Of a stretch of DNA of 38,969 nucleotides, positions 14,709 to 38,969 are shown piece by piece. A program made the position numbers and the translations under genes. The stretch covers positions 1 to 38,969 of the forward strand of contig CAZFUH010000001.1 in NCBI GenBank assembly GCA_964522235.1, given 5' to 3'. Each line of letters opens with the position of its first letter. The stretch's first letter is position 1. The notes under the pieces were generated by a model that saw only the letters and a program-made list of their open reading frames with translations, did not search any database and was not told the DNA's origin. This DNA is from an uncultured Rhodanobacteraceae bacterium. Lineage in GTDB: Bacteria; Pseudomonadota; Gammaproteobacteria; Xanthomonadales; UBA2363.

Positions 14709-15389
14709 TTATCGTTTGCCGGCCTTGAGCTGGGCCAGACGTTCGGCAACCCGATTCTTGAGCGCCAGTTCCTCCAGCTCGGCCAGCTTGGCCGCCTGGT
14801 CGGCACCGGCACCGCTGGTTCCCTTGAGACCGGTCTGGCGCTGGAAGATGCGATCGAACGCGTCGGCTGCGCGATCGGCACGACCCTGCACGTGCTCGCC
14901 GGCCTGGCTGCTGCCGGTAGCGGTGCCGCTGGCCGACGCCTGCTGTTCGCGGACACGGCGATAGTCGGCCAGGGCTTCGCGCATCTCGCGCTTTTTTGCC
15001 TGCAGCGCCGAGATATAGCCTTCCAGACGCGCCTTGTCCTCGGCCAGTTCCGCCAGGCGCGACTCCAGCACCGGGAGCTGCGCCTCCAGGTCGATCTGAC
15101 GCTCGACTGCGGCGCGGGCCAAATCCTCTCGATCCTGGTCCAGGGCGAGCCGCGCCTGCTCGCCGAGCTGCTCCTGGCGAGCGCTGTCTTCGGCCAGACG
15201 TTTGGCGGTCAGATGACGCTGCGCCTCGACGGTGCCGAGATCGGCACGGACATCGGCAACCGCACTGTCGATCTCACGGATGGCCTGTTCCATCACCGAT
15301 TCCGGCGCAGCGTTCTCGACGGCATCGACGATGGCGTGGAAGCTGCCGGCAATCAGGCGGCCGACGCGGCTGGTCAACGATTCGCTCAT
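14709..15389 (-). CDS. PspA/IM30 family protein (bacterial ESCRT-III-like)
   Basis: N-terminal amphipathic helix (SLTSRVGRLIAG), ENAAPESVMEQAIREI, EDLARAAVERQ, all-helical, ends ERLAQLK; GAGGA RBS before ATG 15389. Confidence 0.88.
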   Translation of the reverse strand: MSESLTSRVGRLIAGSFHAIVDAVENAAPESVMEQAIREIDSAVADVRADLGTVEAQRHLTAKRLAEDSARQEQLGEQARLALDQDREDLARAAVERQIDLEAQLPVLESRLAELAEDKARLEGYISALQAKKREMREALADYRRVREQQASASGTATGSSQAGEHVQGRADRAADAFDRIFQRQTGLKGTSGAGADQAAKLAELEELALKNRVAERLAQLKAGKR

Positions 15390-15409
15390 GACTACGGTCC
15401 TCATGTACT

Positions 15410-15922
15410 TCAGTGGGAAGGGTCGCCGCGGTCGGCGCTGATCGCCGCAGTCATCGCGACCGCGGGGGCAGCCCGCTGCGCCAAGTCACCGGGGGCATAA
15501 CACCCCGGAAACCCGGCCTGCGCAAGCTGCAATACGGAATCCGTCAACCCCAGCACGCGCTCGCCCAGGCCGCGCTCGAACCGGCGCAGGCCGGCGGCTT
15601 CGTCGTCGCCGTGCCGCTCGGCACTGGCGGCAAGGACAAAGGCGGCAGTCTCGGGCAGCCAGGCCAGCACCCGTGCAATCAGCTCCGAGCGCAGCTGGCT
15701 GCGCAGCTCGGCCTGACGCAGGCTGCGCTCTGGCGTGCCGAACAGGCGCCGCGCGAAATCATAGGCGGCGCCGTAGTCGGCCAGGCCTTCTCGTTGCAGG
15801 CGTGCCTCGGCAAGCACGGCGCGGATCTTTTCACTGAGATTGCTGGCGCCGGGCAGTTCGATCTGCGCCAGGTAGGTAAGGTCGTCCTCGTCCAGACGCA
15901 GGGTGACGGTTTGCTTGGCCAT
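15410..15922 (-). CDS. Putative regulator with N-terminal ribbon-helix-helix (CopG-like) domain
   Basis: KQTVTLRLDEDDLTYLAQ...SNLSEKIRAVLAEA fits the beta-strand/helix/helix RHH pattern; GGAG RBS before ATG 15922; C-terminal region not recognised. Confidence 0.65.
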   Translation of the reverse strand: MAKQTVTLRLDEDDLTYLAQIELPGASNLSEKIRAVLAEARLQREGLADYGAAYDFARRLFGTPERSLRQAELRSQLRSELIARVLAWLPETAAFVLAASAERHGDDEAAGLRRFERGLGERVLGLTDSVLQLAQAGFPGCYAPGDLAQRAAPAVAMTAAISADRGDPSH

Positions 15923-15948
15923 GGCAGGCTCCATTGCGGACGCATGCC

Positions 15949-25293: not shown

Positions 25294-25410
25294 TGCTGAG
25301 TTTGTGGCGTACTCCAGTCGATCCGTCATCGTTGCAGGTGCGGACAGTCGCCCCCCTTCTTCGAGCGCATTCGACTCTCACTCCTCTGCACTCACTCCCC
25401 GCTTGACCGC

Positions 25411-26217
25411 ATGAAAGGCGCAAGCACACGACCAGTATGGCGGCAGCGTGACGGTGCGATCGAGCATCTCGACGATGCCATTGCCGCCGAGGTGCCGGTG
25501 GCGCTGACATACAACAGCGTGGCCTTCGCCGTGATGATGGCGACGCCGGATGATCTTGAGGATTTCGCGTTCGGTTTCTCGCTCGCGGAGGGGATCGTCG
25601 ACGCAGCCGACGAAGTTGAGGTCGAGACGATCGCCGAGCAACTCGACGGCATTGTCATCGAGATGCGGATTCCGGCGTCGCGCGCGCAGGCGCTGGCGGC
25701 TCGGCGCCGCAACCTGGCCGGCTACAGCGGCTGCGGCATCTGCGGCAGCGCCGAGATCGAGGCCGTGCTGCGGCCACCGCGTGCGTCGCACAGCATCATC
25801 GAAATCGACACCGATGCGCTGCGGCGCGCGCTGCATGAGCTGACGCTGCGGCAACCGCTGAATGAACGTACCGGAGCGACCCATGCCGCGGCCTGGGCGG
25901 CCGCAGCCGGCGAGTTGCAGCTGGTGCGCGAGGACGTCGGCCGCCACAATGCGCTTGACAAACTGATCGGCGCGATGGTCCGGGGCGGTATTGATGCCGG
26001 CGCCGGATTCGCCGTGGTCAGCAGCCGCGCCAGCTATGAACTGGTGCAGAAGGCGGCCCAGGCCGGCATTGGCTTGCTTGCTGCGATCTCGGCGCCGACG
26101 GCGCTGGCGATCGATCTGGCCGAGCGCGCCGGTCTGACTCTGGTCGGATTCGCCCGCGATGACGGCCAGGCCGTATACAGTCACCCCCGACGGCTGCGCG
26201 GCGCGGCACCAAACTGA
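25411..26217 (+). CDS. fdhD: Formate dehydrogenase sulfurtransferase FdhD/FdsC
   Basis: MMATPDDLEDFA, SGCGICG, TGATHAA, REDVGRHNALDKLIG; start codon uncertain. Confidence 0.93.
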   Translation: MKGASTRPVWRQRDGAIEHLDDAIAAEVPVALTYNSVAFAVMMATPDDLEDFAFGFSLAEGIVDAADEVEVETIAEQLDGIVIEMRIPASRAQALAARRRNLAGYSGCGICGSAEIEAVLRPPRASHSIIEIDTDALRRALHELTLRQPLNERTGATHAAAWAAAAGELQLVREDVGRHNALDKLIGAMVRGGIDAGAGFAVVSSRASYELVQKAAQAGIGLLAAISAPTALAIDLAERAGLTLVGFARDDGQAVYSHPRRLRGAAPN

Positions 26218-26224
26218 GCGCCTG

Positions 26225-26455
26225 ATGATGTCCCGAACCGCAATCCTGGTGCAGATGGCGAACGACATCGCCGACTACTTCGCCGCCGAGCCGGACCACG
26301 CGCAGGGCGTCGAAGGCGTGCTCGGCCATCTCCAGCGCTTCTGGGACCCGCGCATGCGTCGCAAGCTCGCCGAGCACGTGCGCAGCACCGGCGGCGGCGA
26401 CCTCAGCCCGCTCGCCCGCGAAGCCGCGCTGCGCCTCGGCAAGGCCGCCACCTGA
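26225..26455 (+). CDS. fdsD: Formate dehydrogenase delta subunit
   Basis: LVQMANDIADYF, HLQRFWDPRMR; last gene of fdsGBACD. Confidence 0.9.
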   Translation: MMSRTAILVQMANDIADYFAAEPDHAQGVEGVLGHLQRFWDPRMRRKLAEHVRSTGGGDLSPLAREAALRLGKAAT

Positions 26456-26492
26456 CGCCAACGCGGATCCCTGCGGAGCGACACGTCGCAGT

Positions 26493-27077
26493 TCAGATCA
26501 ACTCATCGTATGCAATGGACTCCGTACTGCGCTCGCGCCACGGTTCAGTACATGCGTCTCGCAACGGTACTTCGACGGGAGCAGGCAGCACCGTACACCG
26601 ATCCTTGCCGCCCTTGCCGCGACGTACCATGACCTGATGACGATCGAAATCGACATCCTGCACACGCAGGCGCAGCGCCTCGAGCAGGCGCAAGCCACTG
26701 CCGTAGAGCAGGCAGGCGACCAACCACGGGGTTCCATACATCTGGCCAAGCAGCGCCTGCACCTCCGCTTTCGACAGCACGGTCGGCGGTCGTTCGGGCC
26801 GCTTCGCCCGGCGGATATCCTCTAGCCAGGGCAGCTCAATCCCCAGCACCTCCCGGTACAGAAACAGAAAGGCAGCCAGCGCCTGGTTCTGCGTCGATGC
26901 AGCGACCCCGCCGCGCACTGCCAGATGGGTCAGGAAGGCTTCGATCTCGTTCTTGCCCATCTCCGCCGGATGCAGTTTGCCACTCGCCAGAATGAAGCGT
27001 CGGATCCAGCAGCAATGGACTTCCTCGGTGCGTCGAGCCAGTCCGAGCCGCCGGATGCGTGCACGAACCCGATCCAT
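26493..27077 (-). pseudogene. intI: Integron integrase IntI, C-terminally truncated
   Basis: IntI hallmarks RRTEE..WIRRFI, VAASTQNQALAAFLFLYREVL, LLYGSGLRLLE, RRGKGGKDR.TVLP. Similarity stops near residue 172, so the IntI patch, HxxRH and catalytic Tyr are missing. A possible extra frameshift lies in the C6 run upstream (alternative ATG at 27150). Confidence 0.9.
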
Positions 27078-27299
27078 GAGTCGGGGCTGACTCTGGTGTC
27101 CGGGATCGGGGGGAGCCGAGTGCCGGTGGCGTCTGCGGAGAGGATGACATTGAGCCGAGTCGAGCGATGGAAAAGCGGCCAGATTGGGCTGCCGGATTAG
27201 GCGGCGTGAATCGGATCATGCCGCTGAAAACCATCGGAATTCTCCGATACCGCGACTCCCGCAGCCCATGCTACGCTGCCGCATATCACGGCGATTCCT

Positions 27300-27323
27300 C
27301 GCCGATTTGTAGTTGGGTCTTGG
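27300..27323 (+). other. Candidate attI site / 5' boundary of the first cassette
   Basis: GTTRRRY core GTTGGGT at 27312, upstream of and divergent from intI. GTTGGGTCTTGG (27312-27323) is the reverse complement, at 11/12 positions, of CCAAGACCTAAC (27810-27821) at the cassette 3' end. Confidence 0.7.
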
Positions 27324-27336
27324 TGTGGGATTCGCA

Positions 27337-27831
27337 ATGTCTTGGCTGGGTGACATCCTTAAGCAACTTGAGATATCCAAGGCCTTCACCGGCGCAATTT
27401 TCGTAAGTACGCTTACTGTTCTAGTGGCGCCACGATTCTTCCCAGAGGCTTTTGACTCAGTTCCTGGCCAATGGCGTTGGTTAGTGAGCGGCGCATGCAT
27501 ATTCAGCGGCGCACTTCTTGCCATATGGGCGGCTCAACCCCTCTGGCGCTTCTTCGTCCGTGCGCCCGGGCTTATTCTCAACAACCCTAAGATCCGCACT
27601 CCTTCAGACAAAGAGCTAGGATTTCTTGCGTTCCTTGGTGAGAATTATCCCAATGATTCTGCGCACCTCGACCACATTCAACATGACCATATTTCCAAGC
27701 TAGAGGCGCTGCAAATGTGCTTCGGGCTACAGCGCAAGGGACTTGTGCGCGTCAACCCGTTTGAGACAAATCTTGTCAGCCTCACCCCTGAGGGCCGAGA
27801 GTATGCAAGCCAAGACCTAACGCGGCGTTAG
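27337..27831 (+). CDS. Cassette 1: two-TM protein with a winged-helix-like C-terminus (architecture resembles superinfection exclusion protein B)
   Basis: Visibly AT-richer than the flanks; two hydrophobic segments, then SDKELGFLAFL...LQRKGLV...SLTPEGREYA. Family link is tentative. Confidence 0.7.
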   Translation: MSWLGDILKQLEISKAFTGAIFVSTLTVLVAPRFFPEAFDSVPGQWRWLVSGACIFSGALLAIWAAQPLWRFFVRAPGLILNNPKIRTPSDKELGFLAFLGENYPNDSAHLDHIQHDHISKLEALQMCFGLQRKGLVRVNPFETNLVSLTPEGREYASQDLTRR

Positions 27832-27833
27832 GC
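27815..27833 (+). other. Collapsed attC: only the R'' and R' boxes remain
   Basis: ACCTAAC-GCGGC-GTTAGGC, i.e. RYYYAAC and GTTRRRY 5 bp apart with no L boxes. Confidence 0.65.
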
Positions 27834-27864
27834 GTCATGCGCGCCCCTGTGCGATCCTTGACGG

Positions 27865-28065
27865 ATGAACGTACAGGAAGTCTTGGAGCGGCTGCTTGCT
27901 GACGGCTGGCGAGTCGTTCGCCAGAAGGGAAGCCACCGGCAGCTTCAGCATCCGCAGAAACCCGGAACGGTAACCGTCGCAGGCAGGCCCAGCATCGATG
28001 TACCCCCGGGAACACTGAACAGCATCCTCAAGCAGGCTGGGCTAAAGCAATTAGGTGCCCCATGA
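27865..28065 (+). CDS. hicA: HicA family toxin
   Basis: GWRVVRQKGSHRQLQHP..PGTVTV, PGTLNSILKQAGL. Confidence 0.92.
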   Translation: MNVQEVLERLLADGWRVVRQKGSHRQLQHPQKPGTVTVAGRPSIDVPPGTLNSILKQAGLKQLGAP

Positions 28066-28274
28066 AGTACATGATTGTCGTAGAGCGCGGCCCCACGAGC
28101 TTCGGAGCGTACGTTCCGGATCTGCCAGGCTGTGTCGCCGCGGGGGAGTCTCGAGAAGAGGTTCTGGAACTAATTCGTGAAGCCATTGAGCTTCATCTCG
28201 AAGGGCTACGCGCGCAGGGCGAGGAGCCGCCGCAACCGAGCTCATCGAGTGAGACGGTCGACGTAGCCGCATAA
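28062..28274 (+). CDS. hicB: HicB family antitoxin, short form without DNA-binding domain
   Basis: AYVPDLPGCVAAGESREE..IREAIELHLE; ATGA overlap with hicA. Confidence 0.92.
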   Translation: MKYMIVVERGPTSFGAYVPDLPGCVAAGESREEVLELIREAIELHLEGLRAQGEEPPQPSSSSETVDVAA

Positions 28275-28323
28275 CGGCTAAGGATAGATCGCGCGCAGCC
28301 GCGATCTGATCCGGTTGTTGAAC
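28269..28323 (+). other. Candidate attC site (55 bp) closing the hicAB cassette
   Basis: GCATAAC overlaps the hicB stop and matches the complement of the upstream GTTAGGC at 6/7; central stem GGAT-AGATCGCG...CGCGATCT-G-ATCC with one bulged base; ends in GTTGAAC. Confidence 0.6.
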
Positions 28324-28348
28324 AAGCACGGTCAGGCTTGCCGACACC
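28280..28348 (+). repeat. 69-bp dispersed repeat, copy A
   Basis: Ungapped 56/69 identity (hand count) to 34307-34375. Confidence 0.8.
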
Positions 28349-28560
28349 TTACCTATAGGAAATAGCTTTTTCGGCGTGGCGCTTCAGCGATTGTCGATCG
28401 CGTGGATTGAGGCGGATCGACGTCGGGTGCGCAGCGCAAGCGGCCGACCGCGGCCTCGATCGGTCGGCCTGGCACGGGAAGCTGCGCAAATTCCCCTGTT
28501 TGCGGCGTAGCCCGCCCGTCAAGGCACCCGGCCTCGAAACTCGATGTTCGTCCTGGCGTC

Positions 28561-28611
28561 TTCCTCGTGCAGGTCGTTCGAGTCACGCCGCACGACTACC
28601 GGAGCAATTGA
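28561..28611 (+). pseudogene. 3' remnant of a RelE/HigB-like toxin gene
   Basis: Reads FLVQVVRVTPHDYRSN* and stops 1 nt before the Xre antitoxin ATG. This C-terminus is recalled from toxins paired with this antitoxin type; the rest of the gene is absent. Confidence 0.55.
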
Positions 28612-28612
28612 G

Positions 28613-28915
28613 ATGAAGAGCCCGTTCCGCCCAGCCAAGAAGCGCGTCGAGGTATCCGTTGGTGAGTCCGTCCGGATCATCCGAGAGCTTCAGGGGTTGA
28701 GCCAGAATCAGCTTTCTGAGCTTGCTGGTATATCACAAGCAACAATCTCCGCAATCGAGAATGGGCGGGGCAACCTTGGGGTGGAGCGCGCCAAGGTATT
28801 GGCCATCGCACTGCAATGTCGTACGGCCGTGCTAGTCTTTCCTGGTTGGGAGGAACCGCTGAGGATCTGTTCACATCCATCAGACATTTGCGGCGGTCGT
28901 GAAGCAGGGAGCTGA
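28613..28915 (+). CDS. Xre/HTH_3 HigA-like antitoxin with a probably non-native C-terminal tail
   Basis: SVGESVRIIRELQGLSQNQLSELAGISQATISAIENG..NLGVERAK; the tail runs into the next gene. Confidence 0.8.
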   Translation: MKSPFRPAKKRVEVSVGESVRIIRELQGLSQNQLSELAGISQATISAIENGRGNLGVERAKVLAIALQCRTAVLVFPGWEEPLRICSHPSDICGGREAGS

Positions 28916-29087
28916 CGCCTGGATTGGGTGGATCGAGGAGGTGCCTGGAGTCGACTGCCAAGAGTTCACCCGTGAATCATTGCTCGAGTCCCTGCGGGTC
29001 ATGCTCACCGAAGCCCTTGAGTTCAACCGCCAAGAGGCCATTGGCGCCGCCGGAAACGACTACGAAGAGCTGCCCGTTGGGGGATGA
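28875..29087 (+). pseudogene. HicB-like antitoxin whose start appears mutated (ATC at 28875); alternative GTG at 28899
   Basis: IHQTFAAVVKQGADAWIGWIEEVPGVDCQE.TRESLLESLR; GAGGA 9 nt before the ATC. Confidence 0.7.
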
Positions 29088-29134
29088 AGCGCCGTGATCT
29101 TCTGACGCATCTTTCAGTACTGGGGTGCGTGCTC
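29084..29134 (+). pseudogene. 5' fragment of a HicA-like toxin
   Basis: MKRRDLLTHLSVLGCVL resembles a HicA N-terminus, overlaps the antitoxin stop (ATGA) and breaks off at the stop codon of the opposite-strand gene. Confidence 0.6.
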
Positions 29135-29744
29135 ACTGCCGCAACGGGTAGCGGGCCACGCGATCGCCGCGGAAGGTGCATCCAGATTTCGTCGCCGACG
29201 ACGATCGCGGCGGATGCGCCGCCAAAGTCCGGGCTGCCGGGCTCTTCGAGTTGCCGTTCGAGGGCTTGGGTGTTCGGATCGAAGCGCAATACGACGAAGC
29301 CCACCGTGCATACCGGTTCGCGTAAGCATTCGAACACCTCGGCGGACTTCGCTGCCTGAGCGGCGATCAGCAGGCTGCCGTCCGCGAGCATGCGAATATT
29401 GTCCGGGCGCAGGCCTGACAGATCGATCGTCTGGCGCGTGTGCGGAATCTCGCCGCGCGAAAGAATATGGAGCTTGCCGTCGCCCCACGTCGTGACGAAC
29501 AGCTGCTTGCCGTCGTCCGAAACGGCGATGCCATTGTTGGCGACCAGCAACGTCCCCGGAACTTCCGACCACCCCGCCACGAGGTGTTCTCGATCAGGAT
29601 GAGATCTTCCGCGTTTCGCAGGCCGCAGATATAGGAGGCGCGACCGTCCGACTTGCATCCGTTGCTCGCCGCGTCGGCAGCAAGGCTGGTGTCGGCTGCA
29701 CCGACCAGGCTCATCAGCGACATGAGCGCAACGACCCCATTCAT
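29133..29744 (-). pseudogene. Secreted beta-propeller lactonase/arylesterase-like (SMP-30/paraoxonase-type) pseudogene
   Basis: Signal peptide and CGLRNAEDL in one frame, NNGIAVSDDGKQLFV and PDNI in a second, TFRGDRVARYPLRQ* in a third: two frameshifts and a probable internal deletion. Confidence 0.7.
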
Positions 29745-29930
29745 GTGAGTTCTCCGTGCAGGAACGTTTCCGTGCACTGAGCGGTTGCCGCGAATGCGCA
29801 GCAGAACCCCAGTCGCTTCCAGCATCCATCGCAACTGAACCGACCCGGCTGTCAGGGTCGCCGCCCGTTTGGCGTTATCAATCAGTACAGGTGCGGCGTT
29901 CCGGCTGCGCCGCAGACAAGGCCTGCGAAC

Positions 29931-31070
29931 ATGGCTAATCCAAACGCCTTCGTTTCACGCGTCCTGCCGCTGCCGCAGCTGGCCGAGCACGCACCGGCCG
30001 AAGCGCTGCGAAGCGCTGAAGGTGCCGCTATTTCCCTGGAAGACGGTCGCCGGGCACGACTGGATCCGGACGACCCCCGCTCGGCCCAGCGGCTGAGCTT
30101 GCTCGCGGGTCTCAGCCAGCGCGGCATTCCCGTCTACCTGGAGATCGACCCGGAGACTTTGATCATCACCCGGCTGCTGATCCCCACCGTTGCTCGGGTA
30201 GTCGACATCCGAACGGATGCCGCAGGTTCGGTCGAAGTGCTGCTCGAACCGTCTCACGCCCGCCATGTCCTGCCTGGCGATCAGCCGGCACGTGACGAAT
30301 ACCTCCAGACACTTCGTGCGGCCCAGCGAGCCGGCGAGATCGTCGCAGTCACCATGGACGACGCCAACACGATCATTGACATCCGTGCCTACCGCCCATC
30401 ACCGGACGGTCCGGACCGGCCCCTTCCCCTGCCGTTGCCGGATCATCCCAGGTTCGATTGGCGGCACCCGTTGCGTTCGTTGCGCTATTGGCTGCATCGG
30501 CTTTGGTACTGGCGCTGGTGGCCCTGGTGGTGGTGTTGGTGGCGTTGCGTGTCGCCGGCCAGGGCCCAGCAGATATTCGACGCGATGAGCGCGACCAGTT
30601 GCCCGCCCCTGACAGTCGCCGCACCGTGCATTCCGTTTCTGTATCCAGAAAATGGCTGCTGGGCACGAGCCCATGAGATGCGCCGGCTGATGCTCAGCAT
30701 GGGCCATTCGTCCAGAAAGGTGTGGATTCACGGCTCCTTGCGAACCCCAACCAAGAACAGCCCGAACTGTGAAGTCCATTGGGGCTGGCACGTGGCCCCG
30801 ACTCTATGCGTTCGCTACTGGCTGTTGTTCGCGCGGAGAATGGTGATCGACCCGTCGCTGTTCGCGGCGCCGGTCACCAAGGCGACCTGGAAAAGCGTCC
30901 AAGGCGACCCCGCCGCGGCGCTCAACGACACTCATGGCTCGATCTATTATTTCCCCAACACCACCGATCCGACCTATTCGGGCACCAACTACTACCTCGC
31001 CCACTATCGCGCGGTATTGCAGAATCGTTCGATCAATCAAGGCCCACCGCCGTACGCGCATTGCGCATAG
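29931..31070 (+). CDS. Protein-glutamine glutaminase family protein with a long N-terminal pro-region
   Basis: CIPFLYPENGCWARAH (Cys), WGWHVAP (His), VIDPSLF (Asp) match the Chryseobacterium protein-glutaminase triad motifs. Confidence 0.85.
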   Translation: MANPNAFVSRVLPLPQLAEHAPAEALRSAEGAAISLEDGRRARLDPDDPRSAQRLSLLAGLSQRGIPVYLEIDPETLIITRLLIPTVARVVDIRTDAAGSVEVLLEPSHARHVLPGDQPARDEYLQTLRAAQRAGEIVAVTMDDANTIIDIRAYRPSPDGPDRPLPLPLPDHPRFDWRHPLRSLRYWLHRLWYWRWWPWWWCWWRCVSPARAQQIFDAMSATSCPPLTVAAPCIPFLYPENGCWARAHEMRRLMLSMGHSSRKVWIHGSLRTPTKNSPNCEVHWGWHVAPTLCVRYWLLFARRMVIDPSLFAAPVTKATWKSVQGDPAAALNDTHGSIYYFPNTTDPTYSGTNYYLAHYRAVLQNRSINQGPPPYAHCA

Positions 31071-31379
31071 ACACCGCGGCCGGACTCGCGCCACATTTCA
31101 TCCTGGACAGCCGCTTCGAGATCTGGGTGGTCACGGCCGCGGCGTCTGGAAGGCGTAGGCGCAGCCACGCCCACGAATACGGCGTACCGTTTCATTGGCC
31201 CTGCCCCGCGAGTCATTCGTCGTGTGTTTGCTTCGGCGCGTCGCGCAGGCGTTGCTCGACGCCCTCTAAACCGGTAATCGTGGGCTCGGCGACGCCCTGA
31301 CTCCCGCCTGCAGGGCGCGCACGCGGCGATCAGGCGCGAGTGTCGCCATGAGCGCCTGAGGCGGCTCGCCAACGGAAGA

Positions 31380-32117
31380 ATGACCATGACCGCCTGGGTC
31401 TACCTCCGCAACCACATCGGCACTGTTCAGGTGCTGATTCTGGTCGCCTTGCTGCTGTCTGTAGCGCTTCCCGTGCAGATTCTCGCCTTCGGGCCGCCAG
31501 TCGGCAGCCCCGATCCCGAGCGCTTCGCGCAGCTTCATCTGCACGAGGACTTCTGGCGTCGCGCCGTACTGACCATTGCCTACTTTCCTGCGGTAATCGT
31601 GCTGCATCTGTTCGCGCAACCCGCGAGGCGGAACTTGCAGATCCTGTTCCTCGCCGGGTTCGGGTTGTTCCTGCTTGGCAACGGTATCGATCTGTTGTTT
31701 CGTTCCGTGCAGTTCCTGGTGGCACATGCGGTCTGGGCACCGCAGTTGCTCGACCTCGCCGACTCGGCCGCGCGCGAGCATGCGCGCGGCAAAGTTCTAG
31801 CCTTCAACGAGATCGCACCAGCAGTGGGCTTCTGCTTTTCGTTGCTGTTCGCGATCGGGCGTGTTCTGATGGGCTTGGCCTTACTGCCAGAAGGCGGTCT
31901 CGTTTCGCGTCTGGCCGGCCTGGTTCTGGTCATCACTGGTCTGCTCAACCTTTGCGTCGCACTGGCCCTGGTCCCCGGGCATTCCTCCCTCGGGGCGGTT
32001 GGTCCCGCCTATCTCTGGATCTGGCCGATCGGACTGCTGCTGGTCGGCGCGGCAGCATGGGCTTCATCGGGGCATTCCTTCAACAGCCCTGTCCGAGCTC
32101 GGAGCGGACAGTCGTGA
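31380..32117 (+). CDS. Hypothetical multi-pass membrane protein
   Basis: 245 aa with about six hydrophobic segments; family not recognised. Confidence 0.7.
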   Translation: MTMTAWVYLRNHIGTVQVLILVALLLSVALPVQILAFGPPVGSPDPERFAQLHLHEDFWRRAVLTIAYFPAVIVLHLFAQPARRNLQILFLAGFGLFLLGNGIDLLFRSVQFLVAHAVWAPQLLDLADSAAREHARGKVLAFNEIAPAVGFCFSLLFAIGRVLMGLALLPEGGLVSRLAGLVLVITGLLNLCVALALVPGHSSLGAVGPAYLWIWPIGLLLVGAAAWASSGHSFNSPVRARSGQS

Positions 32118-32374
32118 GCACTGAAACGGACTACGCATCGAGCGGCGATCGGTCGAATGGCTACGAGGCAGTCGGTGCAGAATTCATGCGCCGGCCTGAA
32201 GCGTCGAGCATCGGTGTCGCAACGGTACGACTGTGGGCTCGATTGCTGCCGAGTGGCGAAACGGTTCTCGATCTCGGCTGCGGCTCCGGGGAACCGATCT
32301 CGACGGCGCTGAACGACGACGCGCGCCTGCAGTTGGGGGAAGACGATGAAGCCGGAAATCCAGGAATACAATGA
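32114..32374 (+). pseudogene. Class I SAM-dependent methyltransferase, N-terminal fragment
   Basis: GTG 32114; DRSNGYE...VLDLGCGSGEPIS (motif I), then similarity ends and the frame runs into the next gene. Confidence 0.75.
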
Positions 32375-32738
32375 ACTACAGGAGCCGAACCACAAGGAGA
32401 TCTGCGATCTTCTGGCTCGGGAAATCGATCGAGCCCTGCCAAAGAGCGAAAGCAAGATATGGCACGCCCATCCGGTCTGGTTCGTCGACGGCAATCCGAT
32501 CGTCGGATTCAGCAGGCAGAAACCCGGAATACGATTGATGTTCTGGAGCGGTGCGGACTTCGAGGAGCCGGGGTTGAACATCGTGGGCAAGAAGTTCAAG
32601 GATGCCTCGATCTTCTACAACGACGCTTCAGACGTGGATCAGGCGGATCTACGACGCTGGCTGAAGAAATCGATCGAAATCCAGTGGAACTACAAGAATA
32701 TCGTTCGCCGGAAGGGCCGGCTGGATCGGCTGACGTAG
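32346..32738 (+). CDS. DUF1801 (YdhG-like) protein
   Basis: SKIWHAHPVWF.DGNPIVG, RLMFWSG, IQWNYKNIVRRKGRL. Confidence 0.85.
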   Translation: MKPEIQEYNELQEPNHKEICDLLAREIDRALPKSESKIWHAHPVWFVDGNPIVGFSRQKPGIRLMFWSGADFEEPGLNIVGKKFKDASIFYNDASDVDQADLRRWLKKSIEIQWNYKNIVRRKGRLDRLT

Positions 32739-33418
32739 TGAAGAAGTTCAAGACCAGTGCAAGGAACACACCCATGGCAACCGGACTGCTTTTCGCGGTA
32801 GTGCTCGTGCTGTCTTCGCAACTGCTGGCTGAACCTGCTGCTCCCGAGACCGGGGCGGGCACCCCTGTTCGGAACTTGCACATGCAACCGGGCTACTTCC
32901 GTGCCGGCTCAGCCATTGTCGACCGAGAGGCCCTCGGGGGCTTCGCGCCCTCGGACAACTATCCAAAGAGACTGGATCAGCCGGCACCCGCCGACGCGAT
33001 CAGCTTGATCGCACTGCCGGAAGTATCCGCCACGTTCGATGGGTCTTTTCAGGGTTTTCGCGTCATTCTCGCCAATACCACCCGCAAGGCAGTGCCATTC
33101 CCGGCCGCCGACAGTCGGCTCGGTATCATCCGCGAGGCGCTCGACACGGAAGGCAACTGGAAGCCCATCGAGTACCTAACCTCAAGCTCGTGCGGCAACA
33201 GTTTCCACCACGTCTTCCTCCCGCCCGATCACTACTGGTCGTTTGCGGCGCCGGTCTACGAGGGACCTTTCGACACAACGATGCGATTCGTTCTCTACTT
33301 CGATTACGAGGTGGACCCGATCTACTCGAACAGCTTTCCCGGCTCCATTTATCCGGAGCAGTTCTCGATCGAGCAGCACCAGGAACCGGCTGACATCATG
33401 GATTCCGGACAACACTGA
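32738..33418 (+). CDS. Hypothetical exported protein (start GTG 32738 or ATG 32774)
   Basis: Signal-peptide-like LLFAVVLVLSSQLLA, then a beta-rich domain (WKPIEY..SSCGNS, YSNSFPGSI). Confidence 0.7.
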   Translation: MKKFKTSARNTPMATGLLFAVVLVLSSQLLAEPAAPETGAGTPVRNLHMQPGYFRAGSAIVDREALGGFAPSDNYPKRLDQPAPADAISLIALPEVSATFDGSFQGFRVILANTTRKAVPFPAADSRLGIIREALDTEGNWKPIEYLTSSSCGNSFHHVFLPPDHYWSFAAPVYEGPFDTTMRFVLYFDYEVDPIYSNSFPGSIYPEQFSIEQHQEPADIMDSGQH

Positions 33419-33583
33419 GGTGGCCGCCTGTTGTTGGCCACGACCTCCGCGCGTACCCCGGGTCCTGTTGGCGCCCTTCAGTCCATCCTCCCGCCGCCTC
33501 GAGCGCCGCGACTCCGGATGCCTGCGCGAACGCTTTCACGGGACTTGGCTTTACTATTGGTCAGACCACAATCGAGGAACTCG

Positions 33584-34036
33584 ATGGCAACACATCAACT
33601 GCATACGGAAATCGAAATCAACGCGTCGGCCGAGCGGGTATGGGCGGTGCTCTCGGACTTTGCCTCGTATCCGCGCTGGAACCCCTTTATCAGGTCGGTC
33701 GTGGGGGTACCCGAGCAAGGCGCGCGGCTGAAGATCGAGGTTCAGCCCAGTGGCGGCAAGAGCATGCGCTTCAAACCTGAAGTGATCACAGCGCAAGCTG
33801 GGCGGGAGCTTCGTTGGCTGGGCCGGTTCGTGCTTCCCGGGTTGCTCGATGGAGAACACCGCTTTGTCATCGAGCCTCTGGGTGAAGACAAGGTTCGCTT
33901 CGAGCATAGCGAGCGCTTTAGCGGCATCTTGGTCGGATTGCTCCGAGCCAGCCTGGATCGCGACACCAAACGGGGATTTCAAGAAATGAATCAGGCGCTG
34001 AAGGCGCGAGCTGAGGGTTCCGGAGTGAGTGAATAA
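33584..34036 (+). CDS. SRPBCC (polyketide cyclase/START-like) family protein
   Basis: TEIEINASAERVWAVLSDFASYPRWNPF, ELRWLG, DGEHRF, MNQALKARAE; GAGGA RBS. Confidence 0.9.
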   Translation: MATHQLHTEIEINASAERVWAVLSDFASYPRWNPFIRSVVGVPEQGARLKIEVQPSGGKSMRFKPEVITAQAGRELRWLGRFVLPGLLDGEHRFVIEPLGEDKVRFEHSERFSGILVGLLRASLDRDTKRGFQEMNQALKARAEGSGVSE

Positions 34037-34056
34037 GGCTGCGGCATTGCGGCCTG

Positions 34057-34100
34057 GTTCAACCATTCGTTCAGCCGACGCCGCTACGCGGCCCGGCCCT
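34057..34100 (+). other. Degenerate attC remnant lacking its right end
   Basis: GTTCAAC-CATTC-GTTCAGCCGACGCCGCTACGCGGCCCGGC resembles short Xanthomonadales-type attC sites as recalled (AAC-N5-GTTCAAGCCGACGCCGCTTCGCGGCGCGGCTT); no GTTRRRY follows. Confidence 0.6.
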
Positions 34101-34306
34101 GAGGCCTGCTCAACCGACGAAGCAATGCTGCATCCGCATGGTGGCGTGGGGGATCGCGCGAAGAAGCGCGGACCCAGGCTGGGACGAGGCGCCATCGCTG
34201 ATCGAGATCAGCGTGCAGGCGCTCACAGGAATGATCGGCGACCTGATCGACTTCACATCGACGGGGTTTTGGCAGCGCAATCCCCTTGACGCTCGGAACG
34301 GTCGAC

Positions 34307-34375
34307 AAGGGTCGATCGCTCGAAGCCGCGATCTGCGCCGGTTGCCGAACAAGCCCGACCCGGCTTGCCGACGCC
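34307..34375 (+). repeat. 69-bp dispersed repeat, copy B
   Basis: See copy A at 28280-28348; the GTT of copy A is GCC here. Confidence 0.8.
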
Positions 34376-34471
34376 GTGACTTCTCTTCAGCTCGGTGCGT
34401 TCGGCCTTGCCTTGACCGTCGGCGTGGGCGGCCGCATAGTCCTGTACGCCAACTTGAACGAGTCATTGAAC

Positions 34472-34957
34472 ATGGGAATACGCGTCGCGGACTTGCTCAA
34501 GGGAGCCCTGCTGTTTGGGCTGCTTGGCCCACCACTGGGTTCACTCCTGTATTCCTTTCTTCTGCATGGCTTTGGCATGGTGCTGTCGGCGGATGGTGTG
34601 ATCCGGCTGCCCAGCCCGACCTGGACAACGCTAGGCGATCTTGCGTCGAAAGTGGCTGGCAACGCGTTTTTCTCCTACCTGCCGGGATTGATACCCGCGG
34701 CCCTGACCGGGCTGCTCGCAGGTGCCTTGCGCCGACAGTTCTCTCGGCTCGGGCTCAGTGCGGCGGCGGCGATCGGCGGCGCCCTATTGACCTTGCTGGT
34801 CATGGCCTCCTGGCAATGGATCCGCATTCCGGAACCGACCGTGGCCTTGGCCGCCGGTCTGGATTTCATGCCGTACGGGCTGTTTGCCGGCGCTGTCTGT
34901 GGCTGGCTGCTGGGTCGACCGCGCACGGATGTTGCCGCACTCGCCAGAGCTGCATGA
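34472..34957 (+). CDS. Inner-membrane protein, weakly CbrB-like
   Basis: About four TM segments; FGLLGPPLG and GLIPAALTG recall E. coli CbrB; start uncertain. Confidence 0.6.
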   Translation: MGIRVADLLKGALLFGLLGPPLGSLLYSFLLHGFGMVLSADGVIRLPSPTWTTLGDLASKVAGNAFFSYLPGLIPAALTGLLAGALRRQFSRLGLSAAAAIGGALLTLLVMASWQWIRIPEPTVALAAGLDFMPYGLFAGAVCGWLLGRPRTDVAALARAA

Positions 34958-35138
34958 GCGGGCTCCGATCGGGACGGTGGCCTTGGTGCGCGAACGCATC
35001 GCCCGTTGCCGGGCCGGGACGCCTCGGCGCTCAGGACGCTTGAGAACGGTCATGTTCTATGTCTGGCCACATTGAAGCCGGCGCGGAAAAGGTCCAGCAC
35101 AGGGAAGCGCAGGCGGTCGCGTGCCGACGCGCCCGCGT

Positions 35139-36209
35139 TCAGGCGGTCCGATACCAGCGTGCGGCGCGTCCGTGTCCGTCCAGGCGCAGCCGACCTTCGG
35201 CGCGCAACTGGTTGAGCACGCGCCTGATTCGCGCGGCCTCGATGTCGCCGAGCTGGCTGCGCAGCAGGGCCGAGCCGAAGCCATCGGGCATTTCCCGCAG
35301 CACGTGCAGGCGGATGCGCGTGTCCAGACCACCGTCGGCAGTTGCGGCGATGTAGCGGGCGACCGGCTCGGCAACCTGTGGCAGGCGCGGCTGGTGCAAG
35401 GCCGCATCGACGGCGGCGAACCAGCGTTGCGACCAGACGTTCGCCAGCTTGCGATTGCCTGCATAGATGCATTGCACGCGCGGAAACAATGCCGGCAGTT
35501 CGCCGAGCACTCGCAGCAAGTGCGCAGCCGGCCAGCGATCAATCTTTTCCGGTCTGCCGAAATCGGCGTACTGGGCCTCGATGACCATCGCCGCGTGCGG
35601 ATAGGTGGCCAGCTCCGCAAGCTGCTGGTGCAGACCCTTGAGTTCGGCCAGATCCCTCAGCAGATTGTCCTGAGTCTTGCGTTCGACGACGGCGACCGGA
35701 CGCTCGTCGTACAGCAGTGCGTAGTCGCCGACCGCCAGATTGCGACGGATGATTCGGGCACCGGGGAACTGCCACGGATAGCGCTCGCGGCTGTCGACCA
35801 CCAGGCTCAGGTCAGAACCGGCGCGTGGCGAAAGTTCGGCACGCTTGCTGCTGCGATGCGCGCGGGTGGCCGCTTCGGTGCGGAAGAACACCTGCTCGTA
35901 GTGGCCGGAGCCGTCGGCGCGGGGCTTTTCCAGGATCAGGAACTCGCAGCGCTTGCGCTGCGCGCGATCCAGGGTCACCGACAGTTTGCGCCCGAGTCGA
36001 GCCAGATGTGCGACCGGGACCCGTTCGATTTCGACTAGCGTCTGGTCGAGGGCAGGTTCGCGTTCACGCAGGCAGAACACTTGGCTGCCCGCCCCTGGCC
36101 ATGCCGCCTTGGCGCGAAACGCGAACAGGCAACGCCCGTCCTGCTCGATCGCGATCCGGAAAGGAAAGCGCTCGTCGTCGATTCGCTGGGTCAGCCAGTA
36201 CGCGGGCAT
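35139..36209 (-). CDS. ERCC4 (XPF/Mus81-type) nuclease domain protein with an uncharacterised N-terminal domain and a C-terminal winged-helix-like domain
   Basis: VVDSRE, LAVGDY, VVERKTQD motifs of the ERCC4 active site; ATG 36209 is 4 nt after the recQ stop. Confidence 0.85.
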   Translation of the reverse strand: MPAYWLTQRIDDERFPFRIAIEQDGRCLFAFRAKAAWPGAGSQVFCLREREPALDQTLVEIERVPVAHLARLGRKLSVTLDRAQRKRCEFLILEKPRADGSGHYEQVFFRTEAATRAHRSSKRAELSPRAGSDLSLVVDSRERYPWQFPGARIIRRNLAVGDYALLYDERPVAVVERKTQDNLLRDLAELKGLHQQLAELATYPHAAMVIEAQYADFGRPEKIDRWPAAHLLRVLGELPALFPRVQCIYAGNRKLANVWSQRWFAAVDAALHQPRLPQVAEPVARYIAATADGGLDTRIRLHVLREMPDGFGSALLRSQLGDIEAARIRRVLNQLRAEGRLRLDGHGRAARWYRTA

Positions 36210-36213
36210 GAGT

Positions 36214-38067
36214 TCAGCCCCCTGCTTCCTCGAACGGCGCGGCGGCCGGCTCTTCGCCGCGAACCAAGGCGAGCACATCGTCGCCGTATCGCTCCAGCTT
36301 GCTGGCGCCGATGCCGCTGATCGCGGTGAGCTGGTTGCGGGTCTTCGGCTCGCTTTCGGCGATCGCGCGCAGCGTGCTGTCATGGAAGATCACGTACGGC
36401 GGCAGGTTCTGTGCGCGTGCCGTGTCGATACGCCAGGCGCGCAGGCGTTCGAACAACTCGTTCTGCGCCGGCGTGAGATCGGCAGCGGCGGTCAGCGCGC
36501 GCGTTCCGGTTGCTGAGCGGGACTTGTCGCGACCTGCTCGCGGCAGGGCATCCAGGCGCAGCCGTACCGGCTGTTCGCCGCGCAGCACCGGTCGTGCTGC
36601 CTCGGTCAGGCGCAGACCGCCGAAGCCGCCGATGTCGACTTCGAGCACGCCGAACGCGACCAGCTGCCGGAATACGCTGCGCCAACGGTTGGCGTCGAAG
36701 TCGTCACCGATCCCGAAGACGCTGAGCCGGTCGTGGCCATGCTGGCGGATCTTCTCGGTGTCGCCGCCGCGCAGTACGTCGACCAGATGCGCGACACCGA
36801 AGCGTTGACCGGTGCGATAGACACACGACAGCGCCTTTTGCGCTGCCTCGGTCGCGTCCCAGGTCTGCGGCGGACTCAGACAGTTGTCGCAGTTGCCGCA
36901 CGGTTGCGGATAGGTTTCGCCGAAGTATTCGAGCAGGGCTTGGCGTCGGCAGCGAGTGGTCTCGCAATAGCCGAGCAGGGCGTCGAGCTTGCGCCGTTCC
37001 ACGCGCCGGCGCTCTTCGCTGGCCTCGGAACGGGCGATCATCTCACTGAGCGTGACCACGTCGCCAAGGCCATAGCACAGCCAGGCGTCCGCCGGTTCAC
37101 CATCGCGGCCGGCGCGGCCGGTCTCCTGATAGTAGCCCTCCATCGACTTCGGCAGGTCCAGATGTGCGACAAAGCGCACGTCCGGCTTGTCGATGCCCAT
37201 GCCGAACGCGATCGTCGCACAGACCACGACGCCGTCCTCGCGCAGAAAGCGGCGCTGGTGCGCGGCGCGCTGGCCGGTGTCGATGCCGGCATGATAGGCG
37301 AGCGCGGTAATGCCCTGGTCACGCAGCCAGTCCGCGGTCTCTTCGGTCTTGCGCCGTGACAGGCAGTAGACGATGCCGGCCTGGTCGCGATGCCGTTGCA
37401 GGAAGGCCAGCAACTGCTTGCGTGCGTTGTTCTTCTGCTCGACGTGATACCGGATGTTTGGACGGTCGAACGAGCTGACGAACTGGCGCGCCTGTTCCAG
37501 CTGCAGCCGTTCGACGATTTCGCGCCGGGTCGGCGCATCGGCGGTCGCGGTCAGCGCAATGCGCGGCACGTCCGGCCAGCGTGCGTGCAGGACGTCAAGC
37601 TGGCGGTATTCGGGCCGGAAGTCGTGGCCCCATTGCGAGACACAATGTGCTTCGTCGATCGCAAAAAGCGCAATCGAAGCCTGCTTGAGCAGATCCAGGC
37701 AGCGCTCGGTCAGCAACCGCTCGGGCGCGACGTAGAGCAGGTCGAGCACACCGGCGAGCAGGCGGCGCTCGACCTCGGCCGCCTCGTGGGCGCTGAGGCT
37801 GGAGTTCAGAAAGGCGGCATCAACGCCGAACTGGGCCAGCGCCTCGACCTGATCCTGCATCAGCGCGATCAGTGGCGAGATCACGATGCCGGTTCCCGGC
37901 CGCAGCAGGGCCGGGATCTGGTAGCACAGCGACTTGCCGGCGCCGGTCGGCATCAGCACCAGGGCGTCGCCACCACCGGCCACCTGCTCGATGATCGCCT
38001 GCTGCTCGTCGCGGAACGCCGGATAGCCGAAGACCTGGTTGAGAATTTCAAGAGCGGAGCGGGACAT
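36214..38067 (-). CDS. recQ: ATP-dependent DNA helicase RecQ
   Basis: MPTGAGKS, DEAHCVSQWGHDFRPEY, QETGRAGRDG, Zn site CRR...CGNCDNC, RQC and HRDC (PPYVIFHD) domains. Confidence 0.97.
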   Translation of the reverse strand: MSRSALEILNQVFGYPAFRDEQQAIIEQVAGGGDALVLMPTGAGKSLCYQIPALLRPGTGIVISPLIALMQDQVEALAQFGVDAAFLNSSLSAHEAAEVERRLLAGVLDLLYVAPERLLTERCLDLLKQASIALFAIDEAHCVSQWGHDFRPEYRQLDVLHARWPDVPRIALTATADAPTRREIVERLQLEQARQFVSSFDRPNIRYHVEQKNNARKQLLAFLQRHRDQAGIVYCLSRRKTEETADWLRDQGITALAYHAGIDTGQRAAHQRRFLREDGVVVCATIAFGMGIDKPDVRFVAHLDLPKSMEGYYQETGRAGRDGEPADAWLCYGLGDVVTLSEMIARSEASEERRRVERRKLDALLGYCETTRCRRQALLEYFGETYPQPCGNCDNCLSPPQTWDATEAAQKALSCVYRTGQRFGVAHLVDVLRGGDTEKIRQHGHDRLSVFGIGDDFDANRWRSVFRQLVAFGVLEVDIGGFGGLRLTEAARPVLRGEQPVRLRLDALPRAGRDKSRSATGTRALTAAADLTPAQNELFERLRAWRIDTARAQNLPPYVIFHDSTLRAIAESEPKTRNQLTAISGIGASKLERYGDDVLALVRGEEPAAAPFEEAGG

Positions 38068-38180
38068 CCGGACAGGCTAGCAAAGCCGGCGCCGCCACGG
38101 CAGCGGAATCTTGCCGAGGAAGTCGTCGGAATCCACTGATTCCGAGTTCAGCCCATGCAACTCGTTCTTTCCACGCCCGT

Positions 38181-38783
38181 TCAGTCGCGGCGTCCACGCA
38201 GGTCAATGAAGGCCAGGAACTCGGCTCGGGTACGGGCGTCGTCACGAAAACTGCCGAGCATCTGGCTGGTGATCATCGACACGCCGCGCTTGTGCACGCC
38301 ACGCGTGGTCATGCATTGGTGCGCAGCCTCGATCACTACGCCGACGCCGCGCGGCTTCAATACTTCCTCGATGCAGTGGGCGATTTGCGCGGTCAGCTTC
38401 TCCTGGACCTGAAAGCGACGGGCATAGGCTTCAACCACGCGCGCCAGCTTGGAGATGCCGACGACACGATCGGTCGGCAGGTAGCCGACATGGGCACGGC
38501 CGATGATCGGCGCCATGTGGTGCTCGCAGTGGGACTCGAATGCGATGTCGCGCAGCACGATGAGTTCGTCATAGCCATCGACTTCCTCGAACGTGCGGCG
38601 CAGGTAGTCGGCCGGCTCGATCGCGTAGCCGGAGAACCAATCGCGGTAGGCCTTGACGACCCTCTTTGGGGTGTCGACTAGACCTTCGCGGTCGGGATCG
38701 TCCCCCGCCCAGCGCAGCAGGACGCGTACAGCGTCCTCGGCCTGTTCCTGGGTTACAGCGGGGCTTGACTGAGGTGCGGTCAT
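38181..38783 (-). CDS. folE: GTP cyclohydrolase I
   Basis: [40 protein letters not shown]. Confidence 0.96.
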
Positions 38784-38888
38784 CGGGTTTCCTGAAAGCC
38801 GTCAGCAACGGCCAACGGTACATCGAATCAGGCTTGTGTTTCTCGCACCCCTTCTGCGGCGCCACGCACACGGGAACCTGGAGGACGG

Positions 38889-38969
38889 ATGCCACTGGCG
38901 GGCGAACGGTGCAGATCGGAAGAGTACACCGTGCGCGAGGCGATCACGCATCTGTCTCAGGCGGTGGAG
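38889..38969 (+). CDS. Possible 5' end of a gene running off the window
   Basis: GGAGGA RBS, then ATG 38889 with an open frame to the edge (MPLAGERCRSEEYTVREAITHLSQAVE). Confidence 0.35.
   Translation, partial: MPLAGERCRSEEYTVREAITHLSQAVE

What the first reader, a model, noticed from the sequence alone, without database searches (positions are those of the whole stretch)
35139..38067. recQ coupled to an XPF/Mus81-type (ERCC4) nuclease: candidate bacterial helicase-nuclease fork-processing system
Seen: full-length recQ ends at 36214 and the ERCC4 gene starts 4 nt later on the same strand, with intact VDSRE, GDY and ERKxxD motifs, an unrecognised N-terminal domain of about 130 aa and a winged-helix-like tail in place of HhH repeats. 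Established: ERCC4 nucleases are mainly archaeal and eukaryotic (XPF, Mus81, Hef); archaeal Hef fuses an SF2 helicase to this nuclease; Mus81 and RecQ-family Sgs1/BLM act on overlapping branched DNA substrates; bacterial members are sporadic and poorly studied. Inference: a two-gene bacterial analogue acting on stalled forks, flaps or crosslinks, or on invading DNA given its position at the integron edge.
Basis: partly seen in the sequence, partly recalled or inferred. Interest (0 to 1): 0.75.

Follow-up and report, generated by a model that had tools for sequence, protein, structure and literature searches.

The report
Bacterial XPF-type nuclease, not RecQ-coupled
This gene encodes a rare bacterial relative of the XPF/Mus81 DNA-cutting enzymes, predicted to act as a self-paired cutter of branched DNA with a borrowed, likely non-catalytic DNA-end-repair domain at its front; its place beside recQ is not shared by any relative examined, although relatives sit next to other helicases more often than nearby genes do.

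Summary
The two genes are real: intact recQ (38067-36214), a 4-nt gap, then a 356-aa ERCC4 protein (36209-35139). The proposed RecQ-nuclease system is not supported. No recQ lies beside 117 non-redundant homologous loci, and six congeneric recQ genes lack the nuclease next to them. The protein belongs to a sporadic, unstudied bacterial XPF/Hef-type family (10 of 401 genomes in the order). Its parts: an N-terminal barrel whose predicted fold matches only LigD 3'-phosphoesterases (Z 10.4 and 9.4, next 4.1) but lacks their metal ligands; a nuclease domain with D139, E142, D162, E176-R-K and E211 conserved (the motif's last Asp is Asn182); and a winged-helix tail, replaced by Lsr2 in some distant homologues. 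A model supports a homodimer through the nuclease domain. Best reading: a stand-alone branched-DNA endonuclease; defence is the main rival. This scan noted the family and its dead LigD-like domain before, on other DNA.

The parts
36214..38067 (-). recQ, intact resident housekeeping gene (617 aa); adjacent but not a conserved partner
   Evidence: TIGR01389 837 bits over cut-off; orthologues in 6 of 7 congeners at 69-77% identity, none with the nuclease beside it
36218..36223 (-). Ribosome-binding-like site AGGGGG in the last codons of recQ, 8 nt before the nuclease ATG
   Evidence: Read from the sequence; function inferred
35139..36209 (-). Gene for the 356-aa bacterial ERCC4-family nuclease (P0001)
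   Evidence: 576 homologues among 7998 candidates scored; model pLDDT 88
35874..36209 (-). Residues 1-112: beta-barrel with the predicted fold of the LigD 3'-phosphoesterase, metal-binding residues absent; likely nucleic-acid binding
   Evidence: Domain folded alone, pLDDT 90; 3p4h Z 10.4, rmsd 2.8, 100 aligned; 3n9b Z 9.4, rmsd 4.2, 111 aligned; next Z 4.1; Foldseek 3p43 E 1.3e-4, TM 0.64; first His of the protein is residue 68
35397..35810 (-). Residues 134-271: ERCC4 nuclease domain with D139, E142, D162, E176-R177-K178, N182, E211; predicted dimer interface in residues 204-270
   Evidence: Hef nuclease 1j22 Z 15.0, rmsd 1.9, 125 aligned; profile match to 1j22 E 1.9e-7 and human XPF E 1.3e-5; conservation; homodimer model
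35142..35342 (-). Residues 290-356: winged-helix domain, basic (pI 11.5), exchangeable across the family
   Evidence: Many winged-helix chains tied at Z 7.6-8.7; Lsr2 DNA-binding or other HTH tails in distant homologues; pI

Best explanation
The gene encodes a stand-alone bacterial XPF/Hef-type nuclease that is predicted to pair with itself and likely cuts branched DNA (flaps, forks, junctions) for host genome upkeep, and its position behind recQ is not conserved in any homologous locus examined. Shown by calls: three domains, a conserved metal-binding nuclease motif, no recQ linkage, and sporadic retention with frequent change of neighbours. Predicted: a homodimer through the nuclease domains, as in archaeal Hef and XPF. 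Inferred: two winged helices take over the duplex-gripping role of the missing HhH repeats; the phosphoesterase-like barrel, stripped of its metal site but rich in conserved Arg and Lys, binds a 3' end or single strand and steers the cut; the enzyme acts on branched DNA that any host helicase produces, which may be why it is kept beside helicases of several types. Here it is probably transcribed with recQ simply because it sits 4 nt behind it.
For: Nuclease fold and motif: Z 15.0 to Hef. D139, E142, D162, E176, R177, K178 and E211 are invariant in 67 of 67 close homologues and present in 49-54 of 54 diverse ones. Homodimer score 0.76 against best control 0.00; runs agree in at least 65% of contacts, pLDDT at least 74; the mark was reached by 20 of 30 solved pairs and 1 of 23 single chains; the pass may reflect memory of Hef/XPF dimers. 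The N-domain matches only LigD phosphoesterases among 48,161 chains, a domain that binds primer-template DNA (PMC3300020, passages). No conserved partner: recQ at 0 of 117 groups; the commonest neighbour is purA in 10 groups of one clade. Tree clades largely follow phyla and GC3 is host-like. No PADLOC match for the protein; none in 50,697 phage records or IMG/VR contigs. Repair-type neighbours occur: exonuclease I, AlkZ-like, UvrD, DinG.
Against: No activity or substrate was measured; an ERCC4 fold does not fix the substrate. The last motif position is Asn in this clade, effect unknown. The gene is in only 10 of 401 genomes of the order and in 5, 3 and 1 of 171 genomes in three other phylum samples, with broken copies, which is unusual for core repair. 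Toxin-antitoxin, Uma2 or Fic genes are an immediate neighbour at 17 of 81 genome loci (my count, no control), Cas3 lies within 3 kb in 5 of 117 groups, and the actinobacterial branch is on 23 plasmid records, with transposase, recombinase or TA genes close by in 5 of the 6 regions opened. No SOS-box-like motif is enriched upstream. The barrel's link to LigD rests on predicted structure; the profile score is matched by 4 of 100 shuffles.
Confidence: 0.55

Rival explanations
1. It is a defence or conflict nuclease that cuts replicating or recombining foreign DNA (phage, plasmid), with the exchangeable tail choosing the target, and it travels in defence-rich variable regions.
For: Patchy presence. 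TA-type neighbours at 17 of 81 loci. Located between cas3 and cas4 of type I-B operons at L144 and L170, before type I-G cas3 at L155, and head to head with DISARM drmD at L048. Lsr2 DNA-binding tails in 3 of 51 homologues scanned; that Lsr2 prefers AT-rich foreign DNA is recalled, not tested. Plasmid-borne in Actinomycetota.
Against: No PADLOC model matches. Most loci lie among housekeeping genes. The two type I-B cases fall in one clade. In the order, type I-G cas3 (10 of 401) overlaps the 10 nuclease-bearing genomes only in the window's own genome. No intI at 161 loci and no attC-like site after the gene at 106 loci tested.
Confidence: 0.27
2. It is the nuclease half of a split Hef: it needs a helicase or translocase to work but accepts different ones (SWIM-SNF2, Cas3, DinG, UvrD, HsdR, RecQ), so the recQ pairing here is one functional instance of a general rule.
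For: Helicase genes are 11 of 211 called immediate neighbours against 7 of 743 at ranks 2-12 (Fisher p 3.5e-4). A test free of gene calling gave 12 of 174 locus sides within 600 nt against 5 of 810 in six farther bins (p 1.8e-6). These are about 10 separate arrangements after merging kin; 8 of the 12 are on the same strand, with gaps down to 0 or overlap. SWIM-SNF2 genes recur in four different arrangements. Hef joins helicase and nuclease in one chain (PMC7776575, passages).
Against: About 105 of 117 groups show no helicase neighbour, and 12 further non-duplicate loci showed none. Four of the 12 loci are convergent or divergent; five are defence-system motors (three Cas3, HsdR, DrmD) that come with islands. 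The motors share no obvious interface. No helicase fusion was found among longer proteins (one 751-aa hit without a helicase domain; weak test). An SNF2 match is in 6 of 10 nuclease-bearing genomes against 207 of 401 overall. Kin are not independent, and the first distance bin always holds a gene edge, so both p values overstate.
Confidence: 0.13
3. It is a dedicated two-gene system with RecQ, a bacterial counterpart of Sgs1/BLM plus Mus81.
For: 4-nt gap, same strand, ribosome-binding-like site inside recQ, no terminator-like site between the genes. Both genes are intact.
Against: recQ at 0 of 161 loci and 0 of 9 further regions from the order. The nearest relative in the tree (Aquimonas, L049) follows a TPR gene at a similar gap. 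Six congeneric recQ genes lack it, and one congener keeps a decayed remnant beside purA. This RecQ is ordinary, with no extra domain.
Confidence: 0.05

Closest known systems
Archaeal Hef and crenarchaeal XPF (PDB 1j22, 2bgw; Pfam PF02732)
   Same: Nuclease-domain fold (Z 15.0 and 14.0), GDXnERK motif and later Glu, predicted homodimer through the nuclease domain.
   Different: No fused SF2 helicase and no (HhH)2; a winged helix instead; an added N-terminal phosphoesterase-like barrel; the last motif Asp is Asn; found in bacteria, where a 2018 review says XPF has no direct orthologues (PMC6320978, passage) and a 2012 survey lists the family for Archaea and Eukaryota only (PMC3424549, table row).
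Eukaryotic XPF-ERCC1 and MUS81-EME1
   Same: Nuclease-domain fold (Z 11.5-12.1); profile match to human XPF E 1.3e-5.
   Different: Those are heterodimers with an inactive partner; no such partner gene is linked here, and only one family member was found in the genome. No conserved link to a RecQ helicase.
LigD 3'-phosphoesterase (PE) domain of bacterial and archaeal end joining (PDB 3p4h, 3p43, 3n9b; Pfam PF13298)
   Same: Predicted barrel fold over about 100 of 118 residues, well above all other chains; first hairpin in register.
   Different: His9, His15 and Asp17, each needed for activity in CkoPE (PMC3082917, section 12), correspond to I10, P16 and R18; the protein has no His before residue 68. 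No Pfam LigD_N match. The genome has a separate normal LigD PE on another contig.
Actinobacterial 'ERCC4 domain-containing' and Lsr2-tailed proteins (e.g. WP_060722565.1, WP_016880612.1)
   Same: Homologous over the barrel and nuclease domains, 30-35% identity: the same family.
   Different: Lsr2-type or other tails, the canonical Asp more often kept, often on plasmids. Annotated only by domain name; no functional study was found in the searches run.

Membership tests
XPF/Mus81 (ERCC4) nuclease family | ERCC4 domain by profile and fold | tested here: met
   Pfam 31.1 bits over cut-off 24; Z 15.0, rmsd 1.9, 125 aligned to Hef
XPF/Mus81 (ERCC4) nuclease family | GDXnERK core and flanking acidic residues | tested here: met
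   D139, E142, D162, E176, R177, K178, E211 invariant in 67 of 67
XPF/Mus81 (ERCC4) nuclease family | Final Asp of ERKX3D | tested here: not met
   N182; Asn in 66 of 67 close homologues, Asp in 23 of 54 diverse ones
XPF/Mus81 (ERCC4) nuclease family | C-terminal tandem HhH domain | tested here: not met
   Residues 290-356 model and match as a winged helix; no HhH family in Pfam
XPF/Mus81 (ERCC4) nuclease family | Works as a dimer | tested here: inconclusive
   Model supports a homodimer, 0.76 against control 0.00, but may be recalling solved relatives
XPF/Mus81 (ERCC4) nuclease family | Metal-dependent cleavage at branched DNA | not testable with these tools
   Needs biochemistry
Hef (helicase-fused) | SF2 helicase in the same chain | tested here: not met
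   356 aa; NCBIfam Hef model 26.5 bits against cut-off 610; no helicase fusion among longer homologues, weak test
Two-gene RecQ-nuclease system (proposed) | Conserved adjacency to recQ | tested here: not met
   0 of 117 non-redundant groups
Two-gene RecQ-nuclease system (proposed) | Physical or functional interaction with RecQ | not tested
LigD 3'-phosphoesterase | Eight-stranded barrel fold | tested here: met
   Z 10.4 and 9.4 against next 4.1; Foldseek E 1.3e-4; predicted model only
LigD 3'-phosphoesterase | His-His-Asp metal site plus Arg, His, Tyr | tested here: not met
   I10, P16, R18 in register; no His before residue 68; the Arg position is Ala here, Arg in 32 of 67
Described anti-phage systems (PADLOC 2.0) | Match to a defence-protein model | tested here: inconclusive
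   No match at E 0.1; the library holds only systems described by 2023
Integron gene cassette | attC after the gene, orientation of the array | tested here: not met
   Opposite strand to most cassettes; no attC-like pattern after the gene here or at 106 loci; simple pattern, no covariance model

The most novel reading that the evidence does not exclude
Bacteria carry a modular XPF-type nuclease built from a disarmed LigD end-healing barrel used as a 3'-end sensor, an ERCC4 dimer and a swappable DNA-binding tail, and it works as the free nuclease half of a split Hef that couples to whichever helicase it is placed with (SWIM-SNF2, Cas3, DinG, UvrD, RecQ), feeding both repair and CRISPR pathways.
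Probability: 0.15. Interest if true: 0.78.

Novelty: new variant of a known kind. Interest (0 to 1): 0.42.

Why it matters
The reviews read here place XPF/Mus81 nucleases in archaea and eukaryotes only. A bacterial branch spread over many phyla, with its own domain layout, would be a compact single-gene model of how this fold finds branched DNA without HhH repeats, and an apparently undescribed case of the LigD phosphoesterase fold reused as a non-catalytic module. The recurring helicase neighbours give specific, testable pairings. The RecQ-specific system itself is not supported, which lowers the value of this particular locus.

Tried and rejected
RecQ coupling: rejected by neighbourhood counts. 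Integron cassette or integron association: rejected; my attC patterns were crude and missed the window's own degenerate sites. Phage origin: no match in phage records, IMG/VR contigs, or viral folds at E under 0.001. SOS control or a shared leader: no conserved upstream sequence in the 25 leaders compared by eye; a loose LexA-like pattern hit 4 of 112 upstream against 5 of 93 control stretches. Co-occurrence with SNF2 or type I-G Cas3 across the order: none. Sequence-level link of the N-domain to LigD PE: not significant; the profile's only PDB hits were malectin at E 0.21 or worse, taken as chance. Helicase fusion: none found, weak tests; the DEAD-box frame at L031 overlaps the gene in another frame and is not a fusion. 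Remnant beside the window genome's own purA: none. Rfam: nothing in 25000-38969. Expression: no RNA holder listed. Rv2529 as a family member: recalled from memory; passages in two papers gave no domain or function, so it is unverified and not used. Paper searches with no hit: ERCC4 + bacterial + Lsr2, ERCC4 + phosphoesterase + LigD. Searches listed no paper whose title or abstract start concerns this family; subscription journals and supplements were not searched.
Full report
Observation. The window ends with folE (38783-38181), recQ (38067-36214) and a 356-codon gene (36209-35139), all on the minus strand. recQ is complete and ordinary (TIGR01389 837 bits, cut-off 640). Four bases separate its stop from the next ATG, an AGGGGG lies 8 nt before that ATG, and no terminator-like site lies between the genes, so joint transcription is likely (inference). 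The product passes the Pfam ERCC4 cut-off. A DNA contig from a stromatolite metagenome run bridges the junction without differences; it may be the source sample.

Protein anatomy. An AlphaFold2 model from 67 homologues (pLDDT 88, pTM 0.68) has three domains. Residues 134-270 match the Hef nuclease (1j22, Z 15.0, rmsd 1.9, 125 aligned), then archaeal XPF, FANCM, Mus81-Eme1 and human XPF; a family profile finds the same entries by sequence. D139, E142, D162, E176, R177, K178 and E211 are invariant in 67 of 67 close homologues. Residues 290-356 form a winged helix with many tied matches. Among 51 homologues scanned, 3 carry an Lsr2 DNA-binding tail and several carry other HTH tails, so the tail is exchangeable.

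The N-terminal domain. Folded alone from 80 sequences (pLDDT 90), residues 2-112 match only LigD 3'-phosphoesterases among 48,161 chains (3p4h Z 10.4, rmsd 2.8, 100 aligned; 3n9b Z 9.4, rmsd 4.2, 111 aligned; next Z 4.1). Foldseek agrees (3p43 E 1.3e-4, TM 0.64). In CkoPE the metal ligands His9, His15, Asp17 and the phosphate contacts Arg19, His51 are each required (PMC3082917, sections 3 and 12 read). The start of the structural range and a profile alignment to 11 LigD domains give the same register: I10, P16, R18 and A20. I did not see a residue-by-residue structural alignment, and the profile score is reached by 4 of 100 shuffles, so the register is inferred. Independently of register, the protein has no His before residue 68, so the PE site cannot be formed. 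The domain is basic (pI 9.9), with R18, R48, R71, R82, K86, R87 and R110 invariant in 67 of 67. PE domains bind primer-template DNA on the catalytic face (PMC3300020, passages), so a DNA-end-binding role is the simplest inference. The genome has a separate normal LigD PE.

Dimer. Two copies fold together through residues 204-270 of the nuclease domain: score 0.76, best of 3 controls 0.00, runs agreeing in at least 65% of contacts, pLDDT at least 74; the mark was reached by 20 of 30 solved pairs and 1 of 23 single chains. Archaeal members are homodimers (PMC6320978, passage), so the pass may be from memory of them; it shows likeness, not binding.

Is it coupled to RecQ? I fetched 80 genome loci (best 80 of 105), 80 metagenome loci (best 80 of at least 373) and one relative's locus. 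tblastn with RecQ found only 26%-identity hits at two Planctomycete loci, which are DEAD-box genes. The 161 loci collapse to 117 groups at 90% identity, 111 with at least 300 nt and 99 with at least 1 kb upstream; recQ is beside none. Nine further regions from the order have none either. Six of 7 congeners have recQ and none has the nuclease next to it; none has the intact gene, and one keeps a short remnant beside purA. purA is the neighbour in 10 groups forming one side of a branch next to the window's protein, whose nearest row is an Aquimonas gene that follows a TPR gene (quick tree, support 90, rows under 250 aa left out). Gaps of about 5-11 nt or overlaps behind DUF3297, lipid A acyltransferase, Fic, TPR and SNF2 genes show that a tight gap carries little information in this family (crude gene caller). 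The RecQ-specific system is therefore not supported.

Other helicases. With 20 helicases of the window's genome as probes, helicase genes were 11 of 211 called immediate neighbours and 7 of 743 genes at ranks 2-12 (p 3.5e-4). Without gene calling, 12 of 174 locus sides had a helicase within 600 nt, against 5 of 810 in six farther 700-nt bins. They are SNF2 of the SWIM type (L028, L077, L081, L105, L165; SWIM confirmed for the last two), DrmD (L048), Cas3 (L144, L170, L155), HsdR (L137), DinG (L112) and UvrD (L113): about 10 arrangements after merging kin, 8 loci on the same strand, 2 convergent, 2 divergent. Against this: about 105 of 117 groups show none; of 21 more loci checked, 9 were duplicates and the 12 new ones had none; five of the 12 motors belong to defence systems; the first bin always contains a gene edge; kin are not independent; I had no control of other accessory genes; SNF2 does not co-occur at genome level (6 of 10 against 207 of 401); and no fusion was found. 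The signal is real in this sample but does not show coupling.

Distribution and defence. The gene is in 10 of 401 genomes of the order and in 5, 3 and 1 of 171 in samples centred on a Gemmatimonadota, a Spirochaetota and a Planctomycetota carrier (each count includes its centre). Tree clades largely follow phyla, which suggests old presence with frequent loss and relocation (inference). A more distant branch occurs on 23 actinobacterial plasmid records; of six regions opened, five show transposases, recombinases or TA genes close by. No phage record or IMG/VR contig matched. TA, Uma2 or Fic genes flank 17 of 81 genome loci, mostly Gemmatimonadota (my count). Cas3 is within 3 kb in 5 of 117 groups, with the gene between cas3 and cas4 in two related type I-B loci; an earlier scan note prompted this check. 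PADLOC has no model for the protein. The window's integron has a truncated intI and degenerate attC-like repeats (the attC reading is from recall of such sites); the nuclease gene faces it, has host-like GC3 and is not a cassette.

Mechanism and literature. Most likely (0.55) the protein is a stand-alone dimeric endonuclease for branched DNA, with winged helices replacing HhH repeats and a disarmed PE barrel binding an end or strand; the fold and motif are shown, the dimer is predicted, and the substrate and role are inferred from Hef and XPF (PMC7776575, PMC6320978, passages). Rivals are defence (0.27), a split Hef with interchangeable motors (0.13) and a dedicated RecQ pair (0.05). Ten paper searches showed no study of this family in their listings; a 2012 survey lists ERCC4 for Archaea and Eukaryota with no transfer (PMC3424549, table row). 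Databases name members only 'ERCC4 domain-containing protein' or Lsr2. This scan reported the family twice on other DNA, including the dead LigD-like domain, which I saw after my own result; those notes are not independent support. New here are the recQ test, the helicase-neighbour counts and the dimer model.

Noticed in passing
window 26493-34957: Decaying integron: intI truncated at 194 aa (TIGR02249 positions 3-176 of 315), followed by cassette-like genes (hicAB, HTH, protein-glutaminase-like, DUF1801, SRPBCC) with degenerate attC-like repeats (28280-28348 and 34307-34375, 81% alike); the first is multi-copy in the metagenome runs.
   Followed up: partly
window 29931-31070: 379-aa gene with a Gln_deamidase_2 (protein glutaminase) domain behind an unusual Trp-rich stretch, in the cassette array.
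   Followed up: no
window 8761-10329: Two tandem dsbC-like genes directly after xerD.
   Followed up: no
window 11911-15934: pspA-like, yqiJ-like and flotillin genes in one run with an unannotated 174-aa gene upstream.
   Followed up: no
L003 1444-1635 (G007): Decayed remnant of the ERCC4-family gene just downstream of purA in a congener, the site where 10 groups of relatives keep it intact.
   Followed up: partly
L144 5750-9571 and L170 5291-9568: The family gene sits between cas3 and cas4 of type I-B CRISPR operons, 9 and 0 nt before cas4; L144 continues into a type III-B module with Csx1.
   Followed up: partly
L081 2940-6254 and L084 2817-6131: In two Francisella genomes the gene overlaps the end of a convergent SNF2 helicase gene by 4 nt.
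   Followed up: partly
P0204, P0142, P0123: Variant architectures: a GIY-YIG-like tail (my reading, no Pfam hit), a fused nucleotidyltransferase plus HEPN pair, and a duplicated N-terminal barrel.
   Followed up: no
G000 contig C77 604-11655: The window's genome carries a type I-G cas3 (68% identical to that beside a homologue at L155) and a cas1, unlinked to this locus.
   Followed up: partly
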